The notes beneath the pieces are model-generated. The model was not told the DNA's origin. It worked only from the letters and a program-made list of their open reading frames with translations, and did not search any database. The position numbers were made by a program, and so were the translations under genes. Of a stretch of 64,000 nt of DNA, positions 54,314-62,822 are shown piece after piece (positions within the stretch are counted from its first letter, which is position 1; each line of letters begins with the position of its first letter). This stretch comes from an uncultured Candidatus Saccharibacteria bacterium (GTDB lineage: Bacteria; Patescibacteriota; Minisyncoccia; Phycocordibacterales; UBA1006). The stretch covers positions 146,989-210,988 of the forward strand of contig CAZQDL010000001.1 in the NCBI GenBank assembly GCA_964592365.1, written 5' to 3'.

Positions 54314-54386
54314 GGGCGATTAGCTCAGTTGGTAGAGCAGTTCGTTTACACCGAAAAGGTCAGGGGTTCGAGTCCCTTATCGCCCA
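54314..54386 (+). tRNA. tRNA-Val (anticodon TAC); the last 10 nt are overlapped by the stop-proximal end of the serine recombinase gene
   Basis: GGGCGAT-TA-GCTC-AGTTGGTA-GAGC-A-GTTCG-TTTACAC-CGAAA...AGGGG-TTCGAGT-CCCTT-ATCGCCC-A. Confidence 0.85.
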
Positions 54387-56194
54387 CGAGAAGTGTTACT
54401 CACACTAGAACTAACATCTGTTGATTCAGATGTTTTTTCTATAGTTGGGTTAATTAGATGCTCTTGGCTAGAGATTTCTGCAAGAATATCTTGAGGAAGC
54501 TTAAGTCGCATAGATAATCTAAAAGGCACTTCTTGACCATCTTTTTTTGGTCCAGCAATAATATCAGTATTCTTTTTATCTCTTGAATAAATGACAATTT
54601 CATCAACAAGCATATGAATAACCTCCTCTACTAATTCCTTGTTTCCAGATACTTTCTTTAAAACGTTTTGATATTTCTCACTAAAAAGTTCAAGAGTTTT
54701 CAGGTATCCATCAGATATATTATTCTGTGCAATTTTTTCATATATATCTCTTAGCTCGTTTCGGTAAAGAAGTTCTGAATTATTTATTTCTTGAGTTCTT
54801 TCTTTGAGTTCTTTGGGTGATATCAATCCATGTTCATGTTGAATTGATAGTTGTCTTTTACGATTTGGAATCCCAGAGATAAGCCCATTTATTTTTTCCT
54901 GTTGATTATGGAGTTTTTTAATTTCTGTCTTAGAGGAGGAAAGTGTTTGTTGGTGTTTATACACAGCTAAAGGGTTACTAATCAATTTTAAGCAATTTTC
55001 TATAACAAAATCCTCAATTTCCTTTGCTGGAAGAGGTAGCGTCTTGCACTTAGTATTATATTTACTATGACTCTTTCTACTACATACATAGTAATAAGCA
55101 TATTTATTATTTCCTTTCATTAATTTTGGAACACCATTCCAATTATTACGGTGACCATTATTTCCTTTTAAATGAAAACAAGCATCACAGGTTAAAAGCC
55201 CACTTAAATAATATGGTTCTGGACGCTTGCGTGAGCTAATATTAATGGTTTTTGATTTCTCTAGTATTTTCTGTGCTTTTTCAAAAGTTAGTAGATCTAT
55301 AATTATAGGCATGGAATAATCAGATTTTTTCCATTCTTCTTTCGGGAGTTTTTTACCTTTTTTACTTTTAGCATAATAATAAATTCCAGTATAAAGCTCA
55401 TTTTTTAAAATTCTTCTCACGGAAAGATCATTCCAGTGGAAAGGAGAGTTTTGCTTTTTTGATGTACCCTCCCTCTTTTTATTCTTTATAGTAGAGGATT
55501 CAGGTGATAATAATTTATGATCTTGCAAATATTTTGCTATTTTGCCTATTCCGTATTTCTTGTTTACATATAAATCAAAAATAGTTTTAACTCCTTCAGC
55601 TTCTTCTCTAATTATAGATAGCTTCTTATCTTCTCTTTTTTTGTAACCATAGACAGGTGCATTACCCATATAAGTTCCACTATGTGCAGATACCTCTCTA
55701 CCTGCTTGTGTTCTTTGTTTAATGGTTTCAATTTCCAATTCAGCAATAACACCAATTATACTTAGAATAGCTCTACCAAATGGTGTAGTAGTGTCAATGT
55801 TTTCAGTAACTGAAACGAACTTTATTTCACTCTCTTCAAAGAAATCTATAATTTCATGAAGTACTTTTAATTTTCTAGCAAATCTATCTATTCTATACAC
55901 AATCACCACATCAAAGGGTCTATTCTCTGGGTTTGAGAAAGTGATCTCTTCTTTGAGTCGAGCTAGAGCGGGTCTCTCGTCAGGGGGAATAGTTCCACTT
56001 ATTCCATTATCAAAATACACATATTCTTCACCAGCAAATATAAATGGTTCATCTGTATATTTACGGGATTCTATGAGATTCAAAATAGCCTCCTTTTGGA
56101 TCTTTGGACCATACTTTTCAACTTGATCATCAGTAGAAACTCTAAGGTAAATTGCTACTTTTTTTGGTCCTCTCTTTGCTTTTAATGTATTCAT
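54377..56194 (-). CDS. large serine recombinase (resolvase-domain integrase)
   Basis: AIYLRVSTDDQ (catalytic Ser), VIVYRIDRFAR, recombinase domain, Cys zinc-ribbon (CDAC...C...C), C-terminal coiled coil; 605 aa. Confidence 0.85.
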   Translation of the reverse strand: MNTLKAKRGPKKVAIYLRVSTDDQVEKYGPKIQKEAILNLIESRKYTDEPFIFAGEEYVYFDNGISGTIPPDERPALARLKEEITFSNPENRPFDVVIVYRIDRFARKLKVLHEIIDFFEESEIKFVSVTENIDTTTPFGRAILSIIGVIAELEIETIKQRTQAGREVSAHSGTYMGNAPVYGYKKREDKKLSIIREEAEGVKTIFDLYVNKKYGIGKIAKYLQDHKLLSPESSTIKNKKREGTSKKQNSPFHWNDLSVRRILKNELYTGIYYYAKSKKGKKLPKEEWKKSDYSMPIIIDLLTFEKAQKILEKSKTINISSRKRPEPYYLSGLLTCDACFHLKGNNGHRNNWNGVPKLMKGNNKYAYYYVCSRKSHSKYNTKCKTLPLPAKEIEDFVIENCLKLISNPLAVYKHQQTLSSSKTEIKKLHNQQEKINGLISGIPNRKRQLSIQHEHGLISPKELKERTQEINNSELLYRNELRDIYEKIAQNNISDGYLKTLELFSEKYQNVLKKVSGNKELVEEVIHMLVDEIVIYSRDKKNTDIIAGPKKDGQEVPFRLSMRLKLPQDILAEISSQEHLINPTIEKTSESTDVSSSVSNTSRGR

Positions 56195-56276
56195 AGTATT
56201 AAGGGAAGTGTTACATAGAACTATATGTAATTATATTTAGTTTAACAGAAAAAGGTGAAATTTTTAAAGAAATGTA

Positions 56277-56285
56277 TGGTATAAT
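56277..56285 (+). promoter_or_regulatory. extended -10 promoter (TGgTATAAT) 7 nt upstream of ATG 56292 (leaderless)
   Basis: aTGGTATAATactaatATG; divergent from the recombinase gene. Confidence 0.45.
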
Positions 56286-56291
56286 ACTAAT

Positions 56292-56654
56292 ATGGCTAGG
56301 AAAATTACTCAAAAACAGAAAGTATTTGCTGATATCTATATTGAGTCAGGAAATGCAACGCAAGCTGTTAAAAAGGCGTATAAGTCTTCTAGTGACGCTT
56401 CTGCACGCAGTATAGGAAGCCAGAACTTAACAAAACTTAACATTCAAGAGTATTTGAAAAATCAGGCTCAACCAGTACTAATAAATATGGTCCATTTGGC
56501 CCTCAATGCTGACAGGCAATCTGATCAAATAAGAGCTGGGAAAATTATCCTAGACAGAACTATTGAGGAGAGGCTTAACCCAATTTCTCTTAGTTTTGTA
56601 GAGAATCGGAAAGAAAAGGAAACAGCTATTAGAGACTATTTAGAGTCATTATGA
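56292..56654 (+). CDS. phage terminase small subunit-like HTH protein (Terminase_2-like)
   Basis: TQKQKVFADIYIESGNATQAVKKAYKSSSDASARSIGSQNLTKLNIQEYL matches the terminase small-subunit N-terminal pattern (KQ..F..EYL..GNATQAA.KAGYS...A...G..LL....I). Confidence 0.45.
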   Translation: MARKITQKQKVFADIYIESGNATQAVKKAYKSSSDASARSIGSQNLTKLNIQEYLKNQAQPVLINMVHLALNADRQSDQIRAGKIILDRTIEERLNPISLSFVENRKEKETAIRDYLESL

Positions 56655-56751
56655 GAATATTATTTTTTATATTTAAGGTACAATTATACTAATTGAATAT
56701 TATTAACAGGCCCAACCATTGTTAGAATGAGTGGTTCAATATCCAAACAAA

Positions 56752-57990
56752 ATGAAAAAACAACTTCTTATAGTAATTACATTAATGATATTAGGTTCAA
56801 TTTTTCCCGTTATTCATGCTTACGGACAAGTGAATAATGTCGATTTTAAACATTATAGTCTAACTCTTCCAGCAGATTGGGAAGAATTACCTTATTCACC
56901 ATACATTGAAGATATAAATATAGAATTAAAATATTCATCTTCAGAGTATATTAAGGATTATAAGATTGGATACTTTAAAAATAGTAAATATTATCCTCCA
57001 AACTCTCTCTCTGAGATCTTGCAGGGCCGTGATATTCCAAAAGAATTTTTAGAAACAAATAGAAGTCTGGAAAAAATTGAATCGGCTTATTTCTTAATTC
57101 AACAATTCCATATATCTGATATTTATATAGAAGATGTATACAAGGATCTTAGAAGAAATAAAGACAACATTTACGGCTTAAAATTTCTTAGGAATGAATC
57201 TATTAGTTTATATAGGGATGATAATAGTATAATTGTGGACACGTATGGCGTTGATCAGCCTACATACACGGCACTATTTCTTGGTAAGGATTTAGTAACC
57301 CAATTAGATTATTATTCTGTTGGTATGGAAAATATCAAAGAAGATGAAAAAGATTTTTATAAAATTGTAGAGTCCTTTTCTTATGATAATAATTATAGAT
57401 ATGATAAGTCAGAAAAATCCCTATTTGATTTTCATTCTTATTTACCAATGATTAGATTCTTTCTAATAATCACCTTTATTATGTTGATCGGATGGAGAAC
57501 TATCAATTATTTTAAGAAGAGAAGAGCTTCTAATAGTGGGAAAATAATTTCAAAAAAAATAGAGAATGAAAAGACTTCTCCTAGAGAAAAAAAAGAGAAA
57601 GTTAAAGAACCCCTTTGGCGATTTGCATTACTCTCAATAATAACCTTAGGTATATATGAGTTAATTTGGATGTACAAAAATTGGAGAATTTTGAAAAGAG
57701 AATTAAATCTAGATGTTGAGCCTTTATTCAGAGCATTATTCTCACCAGTTTATATTTATAGGTTTAGTCTGAGAGTAGAGGACCTTTGTAAAAAGGAAGG
57801 AATAAAAACAAATAAATATAGTGAAGCACTAGTAGTTTCTAGTATTTACATATTCTTTTCTTTTTCAGTTAATTTCCCAGGATATACTCCATTGTTGGTA
57901 CTTTTTACATTTCTTCCTTTATTACCTCTAGTAAAATTAATGAATCAATATTGGTCCAAGAAGGATAGTAATAAAAAGCCACTTAGTTAA
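56752..57990 (+). CDS. secreted/membrane protein with C-terminal DUF4234-like GIY-motif TM domain (ORF track start 56731)
   Basis: Signal peptide MKKQLLIVITLMILGSIFPVIHAYG. Large Y/N/K-rich ectodomain, then TM segments including LSIITLGIYELIWMYKNW. Confidence 0.5.
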   Translation: MKKQLLIVITLMILGSIFPVIHAYGQVNNVDFKHYSLTLPADWEELPYSPYIEDINIELKYSSSEYIKDYKIGYFKNSKYYPPNSLSEILQGRDIPKEFLETNRSLEKIESAYFLIQQFHISDIYIEDVYKDLRRNKDNIYGLKFLRNESISLYRDDNSIIVDTYGVDQPTYTALFLGKDLVTQLDYYSVGMENIKEDEKDFYKIVESFSYDNNYRYDKSEKSLFDFHSYLPMIRFFLIITFIMLIGWRTINYFKKRRASNSGKIISKKIENEKTSPREKKEKVKEPLWRFALLSIITLGIYELIWMYKNWRILKRELNLDVEPLFRALFSPVYIYRFSLRVEDLCKKEGIKTNKYSEALVVSSIYIFFSFSVNFPGYTPLLVLFTFLPLLPLVKLMNQYWSKKDSNKKPLS

Positions 57991-58211
57991 AGTGGTTTTT
58001 TGGTTTCTTGTAACAGTTTATGTAATAGTTCCTTATCTGGAGATTCAGTAGAAATCATTTCAACTTCCATTCCTTGTGGTAACCCATCATTTTTTAAGTT
58101 ATTTGTGTAATAAAAATCTACTCCATTTTCGGAATCTCCTATAGTGACTTCAATACCTGTGCCGTCATCAAGATTTCTTATGGCTTGTAGCATTTTCTCA
58201 TTTTCATTCAT
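57987..58211 (-). CDS. hypothetical acidic protein (74 aa)
   Basis: Convergent ORF with a 4-nt overlap. Weak support. Confidence 0.3.
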   Translation of the reverse strand: MNENEKMLQAIRNLDDGTGIEVTIGDSENGVDFYYTNNLKNDGLPQGMEVEMISTESPDKELLHKLLQETKKPL

Positions 58212-58255
58212 TAATTAATTATATCATTGTGTGATGTATAATTCATTGACTACTT

Positions 58256-58576
58256 ATGACAAAGGAATTCAAAACGGTAAAGCAGGACCCATGTTTTTGT
58301 GGGTCCCTTGATAAATACGGCAAGCCTAAACTATATAAAAATTGCTGTAGAAAAAAAGTTCCTGAGATAACTAATCAATTGCTAGAAAAATTTAGGGATA
58401 GACCTAGAGAACCTTTTGAAAAAGGAGGGTTTTTAACGGGACGTCCTTTTATTTCCGAAACTTTCCAAGAGAGAAGAGTAAGAGCTGTAAAGAATATAGT
58501 TTATCTACGTCCATTAGATGAGACATTTCATACATTTATTCTTGCAAGATTTTCAGAAATTCTGACTATGGAATAG
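58256..58576 (+). CDS. SEC-C motif protein (106 aa)
   Basis: DPCFCGSLDKYGKPKLYKNCC resembles the SEC-C zinc-binding motif (CPCGSG.KYKKCC). Ends at a TAG followed by an in-frame ORF. Confidence 0.5.
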   Translation: MTKEFKTVKQDPCFCGSLDKYGKPKLYKNCCRKKVPEITNQLLEKFRDRPREPFEKGGFLTGRPFISETFQERRVRAVKNIVYLRPLDETFHTFILARFSEILTME

Positions 58577-58705
58577 ATAGAAAAGCAAGAAGAAAAGGAT
58601 CAACCACACATTATTGTTAAATGGTTTGGAGAATTTGATGCAGTAATTTCAAAGTCAGGGGAAAAAGGGGAAGACAAAATAAAGGGTATAAAATTAACTG
58701 GTAAT

Positions 58706-58933
58706 ATGCGAGCCCTTCTATCTCTAGATTATGATTTCTATTCTCTACAGCACTGTGGGGCTGAGGTATTATCAAAACTTTTAAATCGATTACGAAACGA
58801 ACAGCAATTTCAAGGAGCTAGATACGAAATAGCTGTTGCAGCCTTATCTTGTAGAGCTGGGTTTGAAATTAAATGGATTCATACTTCATTAGGTATGAGT
58901 CCCGTACAGTTTGCAAACAAAAACAGCATTTAG
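58706..58933 (+). CDS. hypothetical protein (75 aa), in the same frame as the SEC-C ORF
   Basis: Reading from the SEC-C TAG (58574-76) to this ORF's stop gives one continuous frame with no other stop. Contains ARYEIAVAALSCRAGFEI. Confidence 0.35.
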   Translation: MRALLSLDYDFYSLQHCGAEVLSKLLNRLRNEQQFQGARYEIAVAALSCRAGFEIKWIHTSLGMSPVQFANKNSI

Positions 58934-58981
58934 TATGCTGTTTTTATGTAGAAAAGGTGTCTGAATTTTGGGGTACCTTCC

Positions 58982-59395
58982 ATGTATATGTTTTATAAAT
59001 TGATTAATAAGAAAGAACTTAATAATGAGGTAAAAAATATAAATGTTTTCCTTAAAAAATTAGAGAGAAGCTATAAGAAATCACCCTCCTTATATTTTTT
59101 AAGATGTTTAACTTATTTTCTTGAGATACTTATTTTTCCATACTTTCTTGAAAAAATATTCAGTGAATATCTTTCGAGCAATGTTATAGGATATATCATC
59201 GGGTTTGTTATTACGTTGGGTATTTATAAATTTTCAAAAGTACTTAATTTTACTGTTTTTAAGGGTTTTTCAATTTTTTATCTTGCAAGAAAGAAGATTA
59301 TTCGTTCTTTCCTTCAATCTTTGGGCATATTATCTATATTGTTATTTATTAATATTTTGTTAAAGTACAATCCATCAAAGCATTATGTCAAATAG
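58982..59395 (+). CDS. hypothetical membrane protein with a GIY-motif TM segment (paralogous to the C-terminus of 56752..57990)
   Basis: IGFVITLGIYKFSKV and further TM helices; very AT-rich. Confidence 0.45.
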   Translation: MYMFYKLINKKELNNEVKNINVFLKKLERSYKKSPSLYFLRCLTYFLEILIFPYFLEKIFSEYLSSNVIGYIIGFVITLGIYKFSKVLNFTVFKGFSIFYLARKKIIRSFLQSLGILSILLFINILLKYNPSKHYVK

Positions 59396-60047
59396 AAATA
59401 AAACTAAAAAGAAATCATTTCCTCCATTCTTGTTCGCACTGGCATTTGCGACAGTTGTCAGTTTTCTTGTGATGATTGATAAAAGTATCTTTAAGGAATC
59501 ACCATCAAAAGAACAACAAGTCATTATTAAAGAAATTGCACAGCAGGTGAGTCCTTATCAAGACAAGGAAAACCTGAAAAAAATTGTCTTAGTGCAAAAC
59601 TTTAAAAATTCTGCTAGGAATGGGAAACAAACAGATACTATAGAGGTTCCTTTCACAAAAGCTGGTATTGTAAGTGGCGGATACTTGTATATTAAAGCCT
59701 CAGCTGATGACAAAAAACTTGGGGACTACTCAACAATTTATACTAAGTTAATACATTCAAACAATTTAGAAGGAGATGGTGGTCACTTACAGAAGAATAG
59801 GAGCTTAGAAACACCTGATGAAAATAAGGGCTACACTGAACTTTTATACAGATTATCTGATATTCCATTTCAAACTAAACTAGGGTCAAATTCTGTCATC
59901 TCAAAAAATTGGCTTCAGATTATAAACGAAAATGAAAATCCTCTATCTAACCTTTCTTTTTCCTCAACAGAGAAGGATGGAGAAATTATTGAACTATCGA
60001 TATATTATGAATGCTTAGAAAATACTGATTGCTCCCTAGAAGAATAA
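59385..60047 (+). CDS. hypothetical membrane-anchored extracellular protein (220 aa)
   Basis: Basic N-terminus, TM (FLFALAFATVVSFLVMI), hydrophilic ectodomain ending in a CxxxxC pair. Confidence 0.5.
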   Translation: MSNRNKTKKKSFPPFLFALAFATVVSFLVMIDKSIFKESPSKEQQVIIKEIAQQVSPYQDKENLKKIVLVQNFKNSARNGKQTDTIEVPFTKAGIVSGGYLYIKASADDKKLGDYSTIYTKLIHSNNLEGDGGHLQKNRSLETPDENKGYTELLYRLSDIPFQTKLGSNSVISKNWLQIINENENPLSNLSFSSTEKDGEIIELSIYYECLENTDCSLEE

Positions 60048-60167
60048 TCAAAATGTAAGTCATCAATCTAATAATTTATCCTTTGAGTTCAACATCAATA
60101 TCCTTATATGTAAGTATCAACGGATATTTGTCATAATAGTTCCAGTTCAATTTACACTTCTCACATT

Positions 60168-60196
60168 AAAAAACCACATTACGTGGTTTTTGTTTT
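60168..60196 (+). terminator. rho-independent terminator
   Basis: AAACCAC-ATTAC-GTGGTTT plus T-run. Confidence 0.6.
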
Positions 60197-60198
60197 TA

Positions 60199-60226
60199 TT
60201 GACAGAAAATAAATTGATGTTAATGT
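60199..60226 (+). promoter_or_regulatory. sigma70-like promoter for the candidate sRNA
   Basis: TTGACA (60199-60204), 16 nt, TAATGT (60221-60226). Confidence 0.4.
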
Positions 60227-60233
60227 AATCTCT

Positions 60234-60334
60234 GGAAACAAAAATTCCATAACAAATAGCAGAAGATAAATCTTAACTTTGGGGGAAGTTAAAACCTTCT
60301 GCTATCCAAAACCTCGTAATATACGAGGTTTTTA
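60234..60334 (+). ncRNA. candidate small RNA (about 100 nt): nested hairpin with a G-rich loop plus its own terminator
   Basis: Outer stem TAGCAGAAG (60257-65)/CTTCTGCTA (60296-304). Inner stem TTAACTT/AAGTTAA around a TGGGGG loop. Immediately followed by the terminator AACCTCGT-AATAT-ACGAGGTT-TTT. No ORF. Confidence 0.35.
60308..60334 (+). terminator. rho-independent terminator (3' end of the candidate sRNA)
   Basis: AACCTCGT-AATAT-ACGAGGTT plus TTT. Confidence 0.65.
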
Positions 60335-60659
60335 CTTTGACCAAACATATCTTTAGAGTACGATGGTATAAAGTATTGTTTCACCTTTTAAAAAAGAAAA
60401 TATGATCCATGTTAATCGTTGTTATTGTTTATCTCTTCTAAAGACATATAGAAAAGAGATTGGTATGTTACTCGTACTCGTGTTAATGGGATTCATGTTA
60501 GTGATGGCTATCCCGTTCATTGAGAATTGCAAACATTCAATATTCTCTGGAAATTGGTTTCCATTTTAAGATATAGGCTGATTACTAGTATATCAGTCTA
60601 TTTTTATTACTTGAGTGCTTGCAATTTTAACAACTCTTGTTATTATCCCTTATATTCTT

Positions 60660-60923
60660 ATGCCAATTATTAAAGCACAAAAAAAATCAGTACGTCAGTC
60701 TGAAAAAAGACGAGTATTTAATGATCGACGACGTCGAGCAATGCGTCAATATGTGAAAGAAGTTAAAGAACTTGTTGCACAGAAAGACCATAAAAAAGCT
60801 ATGGAACTTCTTCCGGTAACCTATCAAGCAATTGATAAGGCAGTAAAAAGAGGAGTGATTAAAGCTAACACTGCAGCACGTAAAAAATCACAAATTTCAC
60901 GAATTATTAAAGAAATCGCATAG
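60660..60923 (+). CDS. rpsT: 30S ribosomal protein S20 (ORF track start 60615)
   Basis: KKSVRQSEKRRVFNDRRRRAMRQYVK...KANTAARKKSQISR matches S20. Confidence 0.85.
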   Translation: MPIIKAQKKSVRQSEKRRVFNDRRRRAMRQYVKEVKELVAQKDHKKAMELLPVTYQAIDKAVKRGVIKANTAARKKSQISRIIKEIA

Positions 60924-60973: not shown

Positions 60974-61045
60974 GCTCTCATAGTTTAATGGATAGAACAT
61001 CGGTTTGCGGTACCGACGATCCAAGTTCGATTCTTGGTGAGAGCA
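60974..61045 (+). tRNA. tRNA-Arg (anticodon GCG as read; G at position 37)
   Basis: GCTCTCA-TA-GTTT-AATGGATA-GAAC-A-TCGGT-TTGCGGT-ACCGA-CGAT-CCAAG-TTCGATT-CTTGG-TGAGAGC-A. A TATACT -10 lies 13 nt upstream. Confidence 0.8.
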
Positions 61046-61126
61046 CAAACAAAGTTAGAATTGTTTTTTAAAGAGAATATTTAGATTAGTTCTTCTTTTG
61101 TTTTCAATGATATAATCTAACTACTT

Positions 61127-61486
61127 ATGGGAATAGAAACCTTTGTTAATAATCAGATAAGAAATCGAGAAAATCGACTTAATTCTCCTGGATTCCAAGC
61201 CGAAATGCTACGTGAAAAAATGGAGTTTAAAGATCAACTTAAAATGACTGGAGACAGTGCTCTTGATTTTGTATACGATGGATTAGGTAAAAAGGTTATG
61301 GGTGGAGCTATCAATTCAGCAGCAAAAGTTGCTTTTAATGACAAGTATGGATTTAGTAATCTTTTAAAGGATGCAACCAAAAATGTATTTGGTGCTACTA
61401 AAATGGGCTTGAAAACCATGTGGGAAATAGCTAAAACTACAGGTAAAGCAGCGAAAATAGGTATTAGACAATTAATCGCAAGATAA
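61127..61486 (+). CDS. hypothetical protein (119 aa)
   Basis: Intact ORF with an extended -10 promoter (TGaTATAAT, 61108-16) upstream; flanked by tRNA genes. Confidence 0.45.
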   Translation: MGIETFVNNQIRNRENRLNSPGFQAEMLREKMEFKDQLKMTGDSALDFVYDGLGKKVMGGAINSAAKVAFNDKYGFSNLLKDATKNVFGATKMGLKTMWEIAKTTGKAAKIGIRQLIAR

Positions 61487-61489
61487 TAT

Positions 61490-61780
61490 ATGTTAGAAAC
61501 AGTTGAACAAATTGAAAATGCTATTGCTGACTTAATGATTAAACATCAGCAAGAATTATCTACGATTCATGATCGAGTTGATTTTATAACCAAACAAGCA
61601 GAAGATCTTCTTGATAAGAAGGAACAAGAACTTAATGAAAAATATAAGAATCGTACTGATATAGAACAAGCAGAAAGGGAATACCTCAAAGAATATCAAT
61701 TAATTAAATCAATGATTTTAGAAGTTGTTGAAAAAACACTAAAAAAGGATTTAGAAGAATTTCTTGAAAAGATTTCATAA
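61490..61780 (+). CDS. hypothetical coiled-coil protein (96 aa)
   Basis: E/K-rich ORF tightly following the previous one. Confidence 0.45.
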   Translation: MLETVEQIENAIADLMIKHQQELSTIHDRVDFITKQAEDLLDKKEQELNEKYKNRTDIEQAEREYLKEYQLIKSMILEVVEKTLKKDLEEFLEKIS

Positions 61781-61872
61781 TTTGTTTATTCAGGAAATAT
61801 ATTAGAATCAACATAAAGTCTCTTGTCAGCTTAATGTTATTGCATAAAATAACTAGCAAAAAAGATATCTTT

Positions 61873-61943
61873 GCGGATATAGTTAAGTGGTAGAATACGT
61901 CCTTGCCAAGGATGAGATGGGAGTTCGATTCTCCCTATCCGCA
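61873..61943 (+). tRNA. tRNA-Gly (anticodon GCC)
   Basis: GCGGATA-TA-GTTA-AGTGGTA-GAAT-A-CGTCC-TTGCCAA-GGATG-AGAT-GGGAG-TTCGATT-CTCCC-TATCCGC-A; closely parallels E. coli tRNA-Gly(GCC). Confidence 0.85.
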
Positions 61944-62051
61944 CAAAATAAGCTTTCACTTATATACTCCTTTCTCGTGCTTGATGGTTAATACTGTCAG
62001 AATAATGATCAAATCCTATATATATTTATCATTAAACGATATAATATATAT

Positions 62052-62786
62052 ATGTTTAATTTTGAAAAAATATTTAATAAAAAGGAGAAGGAAGCTCACG
62101 TTGTTGATGCAGTTGAACTCAAACAAGAACCAGTTAGTGAAAAAAAGACTCTTGAATATTACGAAGAGAAAAAGGAAGAACTTAAAAATTTATATCAAAA
62201 ACGTTCAGAGGAAGCGGTACAATATCAGAATACAAAAGATCGTATTGATGCATTAGGTCCAAATGACACCTTAAAAAACAGCCTACTAGAGGAAGCACAT
62301 GCTTCTACCTTAGGAAAAGTAAATAAAGAAATACAATCAATTTCAGAAGAGGGTATTGGGTTGAATAGTAAAGAACACTATCAAGCAAGAGAACAAATGC
62401 TACAAGATGAATTAACTCGGGTTAACGAAAAGATAGAAGCCTTCAGACAAGAAGTAATATATCCTGAAAATGAAAATGCACAGAAACTTCTTTCTTTGAA
62501 AGAAAGAATCGAAGAATCTTGGAATGAAAATATTCCCCAAGAAGAGGGGTATAAAATACTCGTTGATATTTTTGGAGAAAACAACGTATATGAGCGCACA
62601 TATACTAAAATTCCTGAAATATCTCAAGAAGAATTAATTAAAGCTATTGATGACAGGTTATCAAAAATCGCAGATACCTTTACTGGTTCTGGGGAATTGA
62701 ATACTGAAGAATATAAATTGATGGTTCATCGAAAAGAAAAACTTAATGAACTTCTTGCAAATTGGTATTTTCAGAATAGAAAATAA
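62052..62786 (+). CDS. hypothetical coiled-coil protein (244 aa)
   Basis: E/K/Q-rich. No motif recognised. Confidence 0.5.
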   Translation: MFNFEKIFNKKEKEAHVVDAVELKQEPVSEKKTLEYYEEKKEELKNLYQKRSEEAVQYQNTKDRIDALGPNDTLKNSLLEEAHASTLGKVNKEIQSISEEGIGLNSKEHYQAREQMLQDELTRVNEKIEAFRQEVIYPENENAQKLLSLKERIEESWNENIPQEEGYKILVDIFGENNVYERTYTKIPEISQEELIKAIDDRLSKIADTFTGSGELNTEEYKLMVHRKEKLNELLANWYFQNRK

Positions 62787-62822
62787 TACCTACCTATATA
62801 TTTTTTGAAGCAAACGAGGAAC

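What the first reader, a model, noticed from the sequence alone, without database searches (positions are those of the whole stretch)
60199..60334. Promoter-to-terminator unit with nested hairpin and G-rich loop: candidate sRNA
The 567-bp non-coding stretch between the element cargo and rpsT contains a near-consensus TTGACA-16-TAATGT promoter. It is followed, with no ORF, by an outer 9-bp stem (TAGCAGAAG...CTTCTGCTA) enclosing an inner 7-bp stem with a TGGGGG loop. A strong intrinsic terminator follows directly. A separate terminator lies just upstream, so this looks like an independent roughly 100-nt transcription unit. The G-rich loop could target C/U-rich sequences.
Basis: seen in the sequence. 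Interest (0 to 1): 0.55.

Follow-up and report, generated by a model that had tools for sequence, protein, structure and literature searches.

The report
Candidate small RNA gene in Patescibacterium
A roughly 100-base promoter-hairpin-terminator unit upstream of the ribosomal protein S20 gene of an uncultured ultra-small bacterium is kept in a sister lineage with compensating base changes, so it is probably a real, previously undescribed small RNA gene, but its distribution is narrow and its function is unknown.

Summary
TTGACA (60199-60204), 16 nt and TAATGT with an upstream TG are followed by a nested hairpin (60256-60305, loop UGGGGG) and a hairpin plus U-run (60308-60333). The fold is far more stable than shuffles (z -7.5). 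No Rfam family matches.

The host is a Paceibacterota (Patescibacteria) genome. A sister lineage (L091) carries the same unit in front of rpsT. It has TTGACA-16-TAnnnT with TG, the same two stems with 5 of 13 shared pairs changed on both sides and still paired, a GGGG loop, and an unrelated terminator sequence. A second relative (L092) holds the 3' part. More distant relatives lack it.

The unit lies outside the mobile element. That element, driven by a serine recombinase, ends at 60162-60164 and is inserted at the 3' end of tRNA-Val. The "upstream terminator" is the tRNA operon's terminator.

The stretch is not wholly non-coding. It holds a recombinase C-terminal remnant and a conserved 55-aa membrane-protein ORF.

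The best reading is an independently transcribed small RNA, a new family of a known kind. Expression, targets and mechanism are untested. Only two full sequences support the covariation.

The parts
60199..60204 (+). -35 box TTGACA of the candidate RNA's promoter
   Evidence: Read. Identical hexamer at the same distance from the hairpin in L091 649-654.
60218..60226 (+). Extended -10, TGtTAATGT, 16 nt after the -35
   Evidence: L091 has TGaTATTTT at the same spacing. TGnTAnnnT is the usual promoter form upstream of genes in this window.
60234..60333 (+). Predicted transcript of about 100 nt. The start is inferred, 7-8 nt after the -10 as in this genome's leaderless genes. The 3' end lies in the U-run.
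   Evidence: Inference. There is no ATG in this stretch. The only TTG-started frame is not kept in L091 (read).
60233..60249 (+). Small 5' hairpin (UGGAA/UUCCA). It is specific to the window and absent from L091.
60256..60305 (+). Nested hairpin. Outer stem 60256-60265 with 60296-60305. Internal loops 60266-60272 and 60293-60295. Inner stem 60273-60279 with 60286-60292. Apical loop UGGGGG 60280-60285.
   Evidence: Fold. Conserved in L091 709-758 with 5 of 13 shared pairs changed on both sides and 100% paired. RNAalifold finds the same consensus. The covariance model hits only this RNA and L091 in about 550 kb.
60308..60333 (+). Intrinsic terminator: 11-bp stem AAAACCUCGUA/UACGAGGUUUU, loop AUA, U-run.
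   Evidence: L091 and L092 have different hairpin sequences plus a U-run at the same place, with the U-run on the + strand only.
60169..60191 (+). Context: terminator of the tRNA-Arg/tRNA-Val operon. It directly followed tRNA-Val before the element inserted. It is not part of the RNA.
   Evidence: The empty site in the sister species L096 shows tRNA-Val ...CGCCC AC AACATAAAAAACCAGATTCATTTCTGGTTTTTT.
60137..60164 (.). Context: attR of the integrative element. The P arm is 60137-60162 and the AC crossover core is 60163-60164. This marks the element's right end, 35 nt before the RNA's -35 box.
   Evidence: Inverted repeat with 54388-54413, 20 of 26 (I4). AC follows or precedes the arms at both junctions. 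The occupied site L087 and the empty site L096 support it.
60076..60162 (-). Context: the C-terminal 28 codons of the serine recombinase as it would read in the excised form. This is a coding remnant inside the 'non-coding stretch'.
   Evidence: 87.5% identical to L002 814-901, with the changes mostly conservative at the amino-acid level when read by eye. The fusion 54388-GT-60162 is in frame and gives a 631-aa ORF.
60402..60569 (+). Context: conserved 55-aa small membrane-protein ORF between the RNA and rpsT. A TTGACC promoter-like site lies at 60337-60342.
   Evidence: The homolog L092 110-286 scores 81 in alignment against -4.9 +/- 9.5 for shuffles. TTGACC sits directly after the terminator in both.
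60619..60923 (+). Context: the rpsT promoter (TTGCAA-16-TATTAT with TG, 60619-60646) and rpsT (ATG 60660 to 60923).
   Evidence: Homology with all relatives starts at 60617-60618.

Best explanation
This is a gene for a roughly 100-nt structured non-coding RNA of a Paceibacterota (Patescibacteria) bacterium. It is transcribed on the + strand from its own promoter, which has a -35 box and an extended -10. It ends at its own intrinsic terminator.

Its functional core is one long hairpin. It has a sequence-conserved basal stem (UAGCAG/CUGCUA), an inner stem kept by compensatory changes, and a G-run (GGGG) at the apex.

Most likely it acts in trans, through the exposed G-rich apical loop. That could be by pairing with C/U-rich sites in mRNAs, or by binding a protein.

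Shown here: the sequence features, the stability of the fold, the conservation of promoter geometry, stems, G-run and terminator in a sister lineage, the strand, and the unit's independence from the mobile element and from the downstream promoters.

Inferred: that it is transcribed, the transcript ends, and above all the trans-acting mechanism.

My confidence that it is a real independently transcribed RNA gene is about 0.5-0.55. My confidence in the specific loop-seed base-pairing mechanism is about 0.25-0.3.
For: - Fold: z -7.5 in the window and -4.7 in L091, with no shuffle as stable.
- L091 has S20 95% identical and rpsT DNA 85.6% identical. It carries TTGACA-16-TAnnnT with TG, then 33 nt, then the hairpin, then a terminator, then the rpsT promoter.
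- Outside the motif blocks the two sequences are near-random. Only 72 of 154 columns are identical, and the only long identical runs are ATTGACA, TAGCAGA, CTGCTA and T5.
- All 13 shared pairs are paired, and 5 have changes on both sides. The slid controls give 0-1. RNAalifold independently gives the same structure.
- The three lineages have three unrelated terminator hairpins at the same place, with the U-tract only on the + strand in L091 and L092.
- Extended -10 promoters are the norm in this genome.
- No ORF is conserved within the unit (read).
- No antiterminator alternative exists.
- rpsT and the small ORF have their own conserved promoters.
- The unit lies outside the integrative element.
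- It is single-copy, so it is not a repeat.
Against: - There are only two complete sequences and one fragment.
- With two sequences, 27 of 500 column shuffles reach the observed covariation. An alignment shifted by one position would cut the inner-stem double changes from 4 to 2.
- The unit is absent upstream of rpsT in every relative with S20 at or below 91% identity. It is therefore young or often lost.
- The -10 hexamer is weak, and the promoter pattern alone is not beyond chance.
- There are no expression data.
- No complementary target was found in the 64 kb.
- Eleven contigs of the same population are identical in the RNA, so they add nothing.
Confidence: 0.5

Rival explanations
1. It is a cis-acting leader or attenuator. 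Transcription from the TTGACA promoter reads into the small ORF and/or rpsT. The hairpin is a binding site, for example for S20 or another protein, that modulates termination at 60308-60333.
For: In all three lineages the next conserved gene in the same orientation is rpsT. In L091 the terminator's U-run ends about 10 nt before the rpsT -35. Hairpin plus terminator upstream of ribosomal-protein genes is a known regulatory design (my own knowledge).
Against: - rpsT keeps its own promoter, which is conserved also in relatives that lack the RNA.
- A small ORF with its own TTGACC promoter-like site intervenes in the window and in L092.
- No mutually exclusive antiterminator fold exists in either sequence.
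- There is no sequence resemblance to the 16S rRNA of a relative.
Confidence: 0.17
2. There is no dedicated RNA function. The segment is a stack of terminator-type hairpins that insulate the tRNA operon, the small ORF and rpsT. The promoter-like hexamers are there by chance or are relics.
For: The promoter pattern alone is not significant. The distribution is narrow. The region between tRNA-Val and rpsT is highly plastic among relatives.
Against: - The central hairpin has no U-tract after it and is not a terminator.
- TTGACA, TG and TAnnnT are kept at the same spacing in L091 while the flanks are scrambled.
- The inner stem is maintained by double changes and the apical G-run is kept.
Confidence: 0.2
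3. It is an antitoxin-like or regulator RNA of the adjacent small hydrophobic protein (60402-60569), as in type I toxin-antitoxin pairs.
For: A conserved 55-58-aa membrane-protein ORF lies directly downstream in the window and in L092.
Against: - L091 keeps the RNA but has no small ORF.
- The RNA and the ORF are in tandem, not antisense.
- The duplex energy with the ORF region is within the shuffled range, with 79 of 300 shuffles as good.
Confidence: 0.07
4. It is a DNA-level element: a recombination or protein-binding palindrome linked to the integration hot spot, or a MITE.
For: It lies 35-140 nt from the attR of a serine-recombinase element, in a hot spot. It contains 10-bp inverted repeats.
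Against: - The att core and arms are mapped elsewhere, at 60137-60164.
- L091 has the unit with no tRNA or att site beside it.
- The arms covary instead of keeping sequence.
- A G-U pair fits only the + strand RNA.
- It is single-copy with no target-site duplication.
- There is no match in phages, plasmids or viral contigs.
Confidence: 0.04

Closest known systems
RsaE/RoxS-type sRNAs of Firmicutes (from my own knowledge; not tested as homologs)
   Same: They are about 100 nt and have their own sigma-A-type promoter. They fold into hairpins that expose a homopolymeric run in loops used as the seed, and they end in an intrinsic terminator.
   Different: Their seeds are C-rich and pair with G-rich Shine-Dalgarno regions. 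Here the run is G-rich, and this genome has no Shine-Dalgarno sequences. A relative's 16S lacks the CCUCC tail. There is no sequence or Rfam similarity.
GcvB-type sRNAs with G/U-rich seeds (from my own knowledge)
   Same: A G-rich single-stranded element is presumed to recognise C/A- or C/U-rich mRNA sites.
   Different: GcvB is about 200 nt and Hfq-dependent. Its seed is a linear region, not an apical loop. It is found in proteobacteria only. There is no Rfam hit here.
Ribosomal-protein leaders that act through a terminator, such as the L20 and S10/L4 leaders (from my own knowledge)
   Same: A structured RNA plus an intrinsic terminator lies upstream of a ribosomal-protein gene.
   Different: rpsT has its own conserved promoter downstream of the terminator. 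There is no alternative fold. There is no rRNA resemblance at sequence level. In two of the three lineages another gene intervenes.

Membership tests
Any Rfam 15 family | Covariance-model score at or above the family's gathering threshold | tested here: not met
   Only tRNAs pass in the window. The best sub-threshold hits over 60000-60700 have E of at least 0.17 and are far below gathering. L091 and L092 also give nothing.
Trans-encoded bacterial sRNA (class) | Own promoter directly upstream | tested here: met
   At sequence level only: TTGACA-16-TGnTAnnnT in the window and in L091 at the same spacing. This is the genome's usual promoter form. Promoter activity was not tested.
Trans-encoded bacterial sRNA (class) | Rho-independent terminator forming the 3' end | tested here: met
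   An 11-bp hairpin plus U-run. L091 and L092 have different hairpins plus a U-run at the same place.
Trans-encoded bacterial sRNA (class) | No conserved ORF within the unit | tested here: met
   There is no ATG in the unit. The single TTG frame is interrupted in L091 (read).
Trans-encoded bacterial sRNA (class) | Structure conserved with compensatory changes | tested here: met
   13 of 13 pairs are kept and 5 have double changes. This rests on two sequences only, and 27 of 500 shuffles do as well.
Trans-encoded bacterial sRNA (class) | A transcript of the predicted size exists | not testable with these tools
   No expression data can be reached with these tools.
Trans-encoded bacterial sRNA (class) | A conserved seed with complementary targets | tested here: inconclusive
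   The GGGG run is kept in both loops. No target stands out in the 64 kb: 7 matches with up to 2 mismatches against 3.7 expected, one of them the RNA's own complement. The whole genome was not available.
Ribosomal-protein leader / transcription attenuator | Lies in the 5' UTR of the regulated gene with no promoter in between | tested here: not met
   The rpsT promoter (60619-46) is conserved in all close relatives, with or without the RNA. The small ORF and a TTGACC site intervene.
Ribosomal-protein leader / transcription attenuator | Mutually exclusive terminator and antiterminator folds | tested here: not met
   The terminator still forms when the big hairpin is blocked. Its 5' arm stays unpaired before the 3' arm is made.
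Ribosomal-protein leader / transcription attenuator | Mimics the protein's rRNA binding site | tested here: inconclusive
   Local similarity to the 16S rRNA of relative L002 is no better than for shuffles. Structural mimicry was not tested.
Type I toxin-antitoxin | The RNA is complementary to the mRNA of an adjacent small hydrophobic protein and co-occurs with it | tested here: not met
   The duplex energy is within the shuffled range. L091 has the RNA without the ORF.
CsrB/RsmZ-type protein sponge | Several hairpins with GGA in their loops | tested here: not met
   There is one main hairpin. GGA is in the window's loop but not in L091's, which reads AAAGGGGU.
att site of the neighbouring serine-recombinase element | Overlaps the crossover core and the recombinase-binding arms | tested here: not met
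   The core is AC at 60163-64 and the P arm is 60137-62. The hairpin starts 92 nt further on. L091 has the unit without an att site.
MITE / dispersed repeat | Multiple copies and a target-site duplication | tested here: not met
   It is single-copy in the window and in about 550 kb of related loci.

The most novel reading that the evidence does not exclude
This would be a trans-acting riboregulator in a Patescibacterium. I found none described for this group in the held paper library.

The genome appears to translate mostly leaderless mRNAs, and a relative's 16S rRNA has lost the anti-Shine-Dalgarno tail. A G-rich-loop sRNA could therefore not work by the textbook route of occluding a ribosome-binding site. 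It would have to act on the 5'-terminal or coding sequence of leaderless mRNAs, on RNA stability, or as a protein decoy.
Probability: 0.28. Interest if true: 0.55.

Novelty: new member of a known kind. Interest (0 to 1): 0.38.

Why it matters
Regulation in Patescibacteria (the Candidate Phyla Radiation) is almost unexplored. A recent perspective on the group mentions no native regulatory RNAs.

A small RNA gene that can be verified, with defined promoter, terminator and conserved loop, would give a concrete handle on riboregulation in organisms with genomes below 1 Mb. These organisms also appear to lack the Shine-Dalgarno mechanism that most known sRNAs exploit.

If it is not expressed, the locus still documents how an insertion hot spot between tRNA-Val and rpsT is organised.

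Tried and rejected
- Rfam, in gathering and permissive modes, on the window and on the homolog loci gave nothing.
- I looked for homologs upstream of rpsT in 79 GTDB species and in S20 variants at 78-95% identity from ENA, JGI and Logan. Only L091 and L092 carry the unit.
- The single metagenome scan used the conserved rpsT promoter and gave 4 contigs. None was a new homolog, but one was the empty attB site.
- Fetching the region through the gene upstream of the tRNAs failed, because the contigs stop at the tRNAs.
- Fetching through L091's upstream phosphatase gene found no synteny.
- Ten more contigs of the same population were identical, or had SNPs only outside the RNA.
- The covariance model found no extra member. 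The L034 and L021 hits are coding sequence and a terminator.
- Viral contigs, phages and plasmids gave nothing.
- Minus-strand reading: it folds slightly better in the window. I rejected it because no promoter can fit, and because the L091 and L092 terminators have U-tracts only on the + strand.
- SD-mimic idea for the GGGGG loop: rejected, because there are no SD sequences and a relative's 16S lacks CCUCC.
- S20-site mimicry, type I antitoxin, attenuator switch, att site and MITE were each tested and not supported.

Full report
**What is there.**
- The promoter is TTGACA at 60199-60204, then 16 nt, then TAATGT at 60221-60226.
- A small 5' hairpin lies at 60233-60249.
- The long hairpin has an outer stem of 10 bp (60256-60265 with 60296-60305). 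This stem encloses an inner stem of 7 bp (60273-60279 with 60286-60292) with loop UGGGGG.
- An 11-bp hairpin (60308-60332) runs into a U-run.
- As RNA, 60232-60334 folds at -33.3 kcal/mol, against -13.7 +/- 2.6 for dinucleotide shuffles (z -7.5).
- A separate terminator lies at 60169-60191.

It is preceded by TG. TGnTAnnnT is the form of promoter that sits 5-12 nt in front of 27 of 47 start codons in this window. The full pattern TTGACA-N12-14-TGnTAnnnT occurs only here in the 64 kb. With 0.35 expected by chance, that alone is not significant. No Rfam family matches.

**Host and context.**
The S20 protein places the window in Paceibacterota/Patescibacteria. The best GTDB species are 76-78% identical.

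The 'element' to the left is real, and its right end can be fixed.
- A large serine recombinase (54377-56194, minus strand) abuts tRNA-Val (54314-54387).
- The 26 nt just inside the left junction (54388-54413) and the 26 nt at 60137-60162 are inverted repeats, matching at 20 of 26 positions with 9 of 9 next to the junctions.
- Both are flanked by the dinucleotide AC.
- Joining 54388 to 60162 through that core gives an in-frame 631-aa recombinase.
- Its last 28 codons (60076-60162, minus strand) are 87.5% identical to a similar junction in L002, with the changes mostly conservative at the amino-acid level when read by eye.
- A sister species shows the empty site: tRNA-Val ...CGCCC-AC-AACATAAAAAACCAGATTCATTTCTGGTTTTTT (L096).
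- Another contig of that species shows the same site occupied (L087).

The element therefore ends at 60162-60164. Before the insertion, tRNA-Val was followed directly by the hairpin at 60169-60191, which is the tRNA operon's terminator. The candidate lies in chromosomal DNA outside the element.

The stretch is not wholly non-coding. Besides the recombinase remnant it holds a 55-aa membrane-protein ORF (60402-60569). This ORF is conserved in L092, with alignment score 81 against -4.9 +/- 9.5 for shuffles. rpsT starts at ATG 60660 and has its own promoter at 60619-60646. That promoter is conserved in all relatives with S20 at or above 83% identity except L090.

**Relatives.**
Homology with relatives at 78-91% S20 identity begins only at 60617. 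What lies upstream of rpsT differs in nearly every lineage. Two contigs whose S20 is 95% identical are the exception.

L091 carries the following between a histidine-phosphatase gene and rpsT:
- TTGACA, 16 nt, TATTTT preceded by TG;
- 33 nt of unrelated sequence;
- a hairpin with outer stem GUAGCAG/CUGCUAC, inner stem UUAAAC/GUUUAA and loop AAAGGG(G);
- an unrelated terminator hairpin with U7;
- ten bases later, the rpsT promoter.

L091 folds with z -4.7.

The L092 contig begins inside the 3' strand of the outer stem (...CTTCTGTCT...). It continues with a third, different terminator, then TTGACC, then the small ORF, then rpsT.

In an ungapped alignment of the two complete hairpins, all 13 shared pairs are paired. 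Five are changed on both sides, and the slid controls give 0-1. RNAalifold finds the same consensus on its own.

Outside the promoter boxes, UAGCAGA, CUGCUA, the UUAA arms and the G-run, the two sequences are essentially randomised. Only 72 of 154 columns are identical. The retained blocks are therefore under selection.

A covariance model built from the pair finds nothing else in about 550 kb of related loci or elsewhere in the window. Eleven contigs of the window's own population are identical in the RNA. The one variant has 4 SNPs, all outside it.

**Strand and independence.**
The minus strand folds slightly better in the window. It has no room for a promoter, though, and the L091 and L092 terminators have U-tracts only on the + strand. 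One pair that is A-U in L091 is G-U in the window on the + strand.

Neither sequence has an alternative fold that would compete with the terminator. Both downstream genes have their own promoters. Together these points favour an independent roughly 100-nt transcript over a leader.

**Mechanism.**
The best-supported reading is a small RNA gene whose conserved features are a basal stem and an exposed G-run. I commit to trans action through that loop, by base pairing with C/U-rich RNA or by protein binding. This step is inference.

The textbook mechanism is unlikely.
- No gene in the window has a Shine-Dalgarno sequence.
- Most genes look leaderless.
- The 16S rRNA of a relative ends GGAUCAAUUCAAAG, without CCUCC.

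The loop is therefore neither an SD mimic nor aimed at SD regions.

No target stands out in the 64 kb. There is no complementarity to the neighbouring small-ORF mRNA and no resemblance to 16S rRNA.

**Rivals.**
I considered four alternatives:
- a protein-dependent attenuator of rpsT or the small ORF;
- a functionless stack of hairpins with a chance promoter;
- a type I antitoxin-like RNA;
- a DNA-level site.

The evidence for and against each is listed in the rival explanations above.

**Comparison and novelty.**
It works like a classical promoter-to-terminator sRNA. The nearest analogues in design are RsaE/RoxS, which use homopolymer loops as seeds, and GcvB, which has a G-rich seed (both from my own knowledge). 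It belongs to no described family. Searches of the held literature found no native sRNA described in Patescibacteria. It is a new member of a known kind, with narrow distribution and thin comparative support. Interest is moderate to low unless expression is shown.

Noticed in passing
window 54377-60164; L096 6284-6400; L087 528-600; L002 814-901: This is a 5.8-kb integrative element. It carries a large serine recombinase, a small terminase subunit (Terminase_2), a DUF4234 membrane protein and unknown ORFs. It is inserted at the AC at the 3' end of tRNA-Val. The attP site lies inside the recombinase's own 3' end, so integration shortens the enzyme by 28 residues: 631 aa when excised, ending ...SRGR when integrated. 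A sister species shows both the empty and the occupied site.
   Followed up: partly
window 60402-60569; L092 110-286: A conserved 55-58-aa small membrane protein (motifs LKTYxKEI, a TM helix, and sGNWF at the C-terminus). The gene callers behind the contig tables did not call it.
   Followed up: partly
whole window (start-codon upstreams); L002 4586-6087: No Shine-Dalgarno sequences appear anywhere in the window. 27 of 47 ORFs have a -10 box (often TGnTATAAT) ending 5-12 nt before the ATG, which suggests leaderless mRNAs. The 16S rRNA of a relative ends GGAUCAAUUCAAAG and lacks the CCUCC anti-SD.
   Followed up: partly
window 60615-60660; L002, L004, L006, L034, L090 upstream of rpsT: rpsT starts at ATG 60660, not GTG 60615. 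Its promoter TTGCAA-16-TATTAT leaves a leader of only about 7 nt. More distant relatives instead have a roughly 40-nt rpsT leader with a small hairpin of variable sequence. That hairpin is a possible S20 autoregulatory site.
   Followed up: no
L002 985-1090: A GC-rich segment (roughly 50-55% by eye) of about 100 nt sits in an AT-rich genome next to the attR-like junction. It folds with z -3.4 (+ strand) and -3.9 (- strand) and has no Rfam match. It is a possible unannotated structured RNA.
   Followed up: partly
window 60974-62800; L083-L085 downstream of rpsT: The rpsT neighbourhood is a hot spot on both sides. In the window, two small ORFs (one a weak DUF6040 hit) lie between tRNA-Arg and tRNA-Gly. 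In relatives, Fic-domain and small resolvase genes lie after rpsT, and the upstream genes differ in nearly every lineage.
   Followed up: no
L110 1-590 versus window 57497: One contig of the same population carries a variant of the element, with different genes (DUF4160) to the left of window position 57497. So the element's cargo is polymorphic.
   Followed up: no
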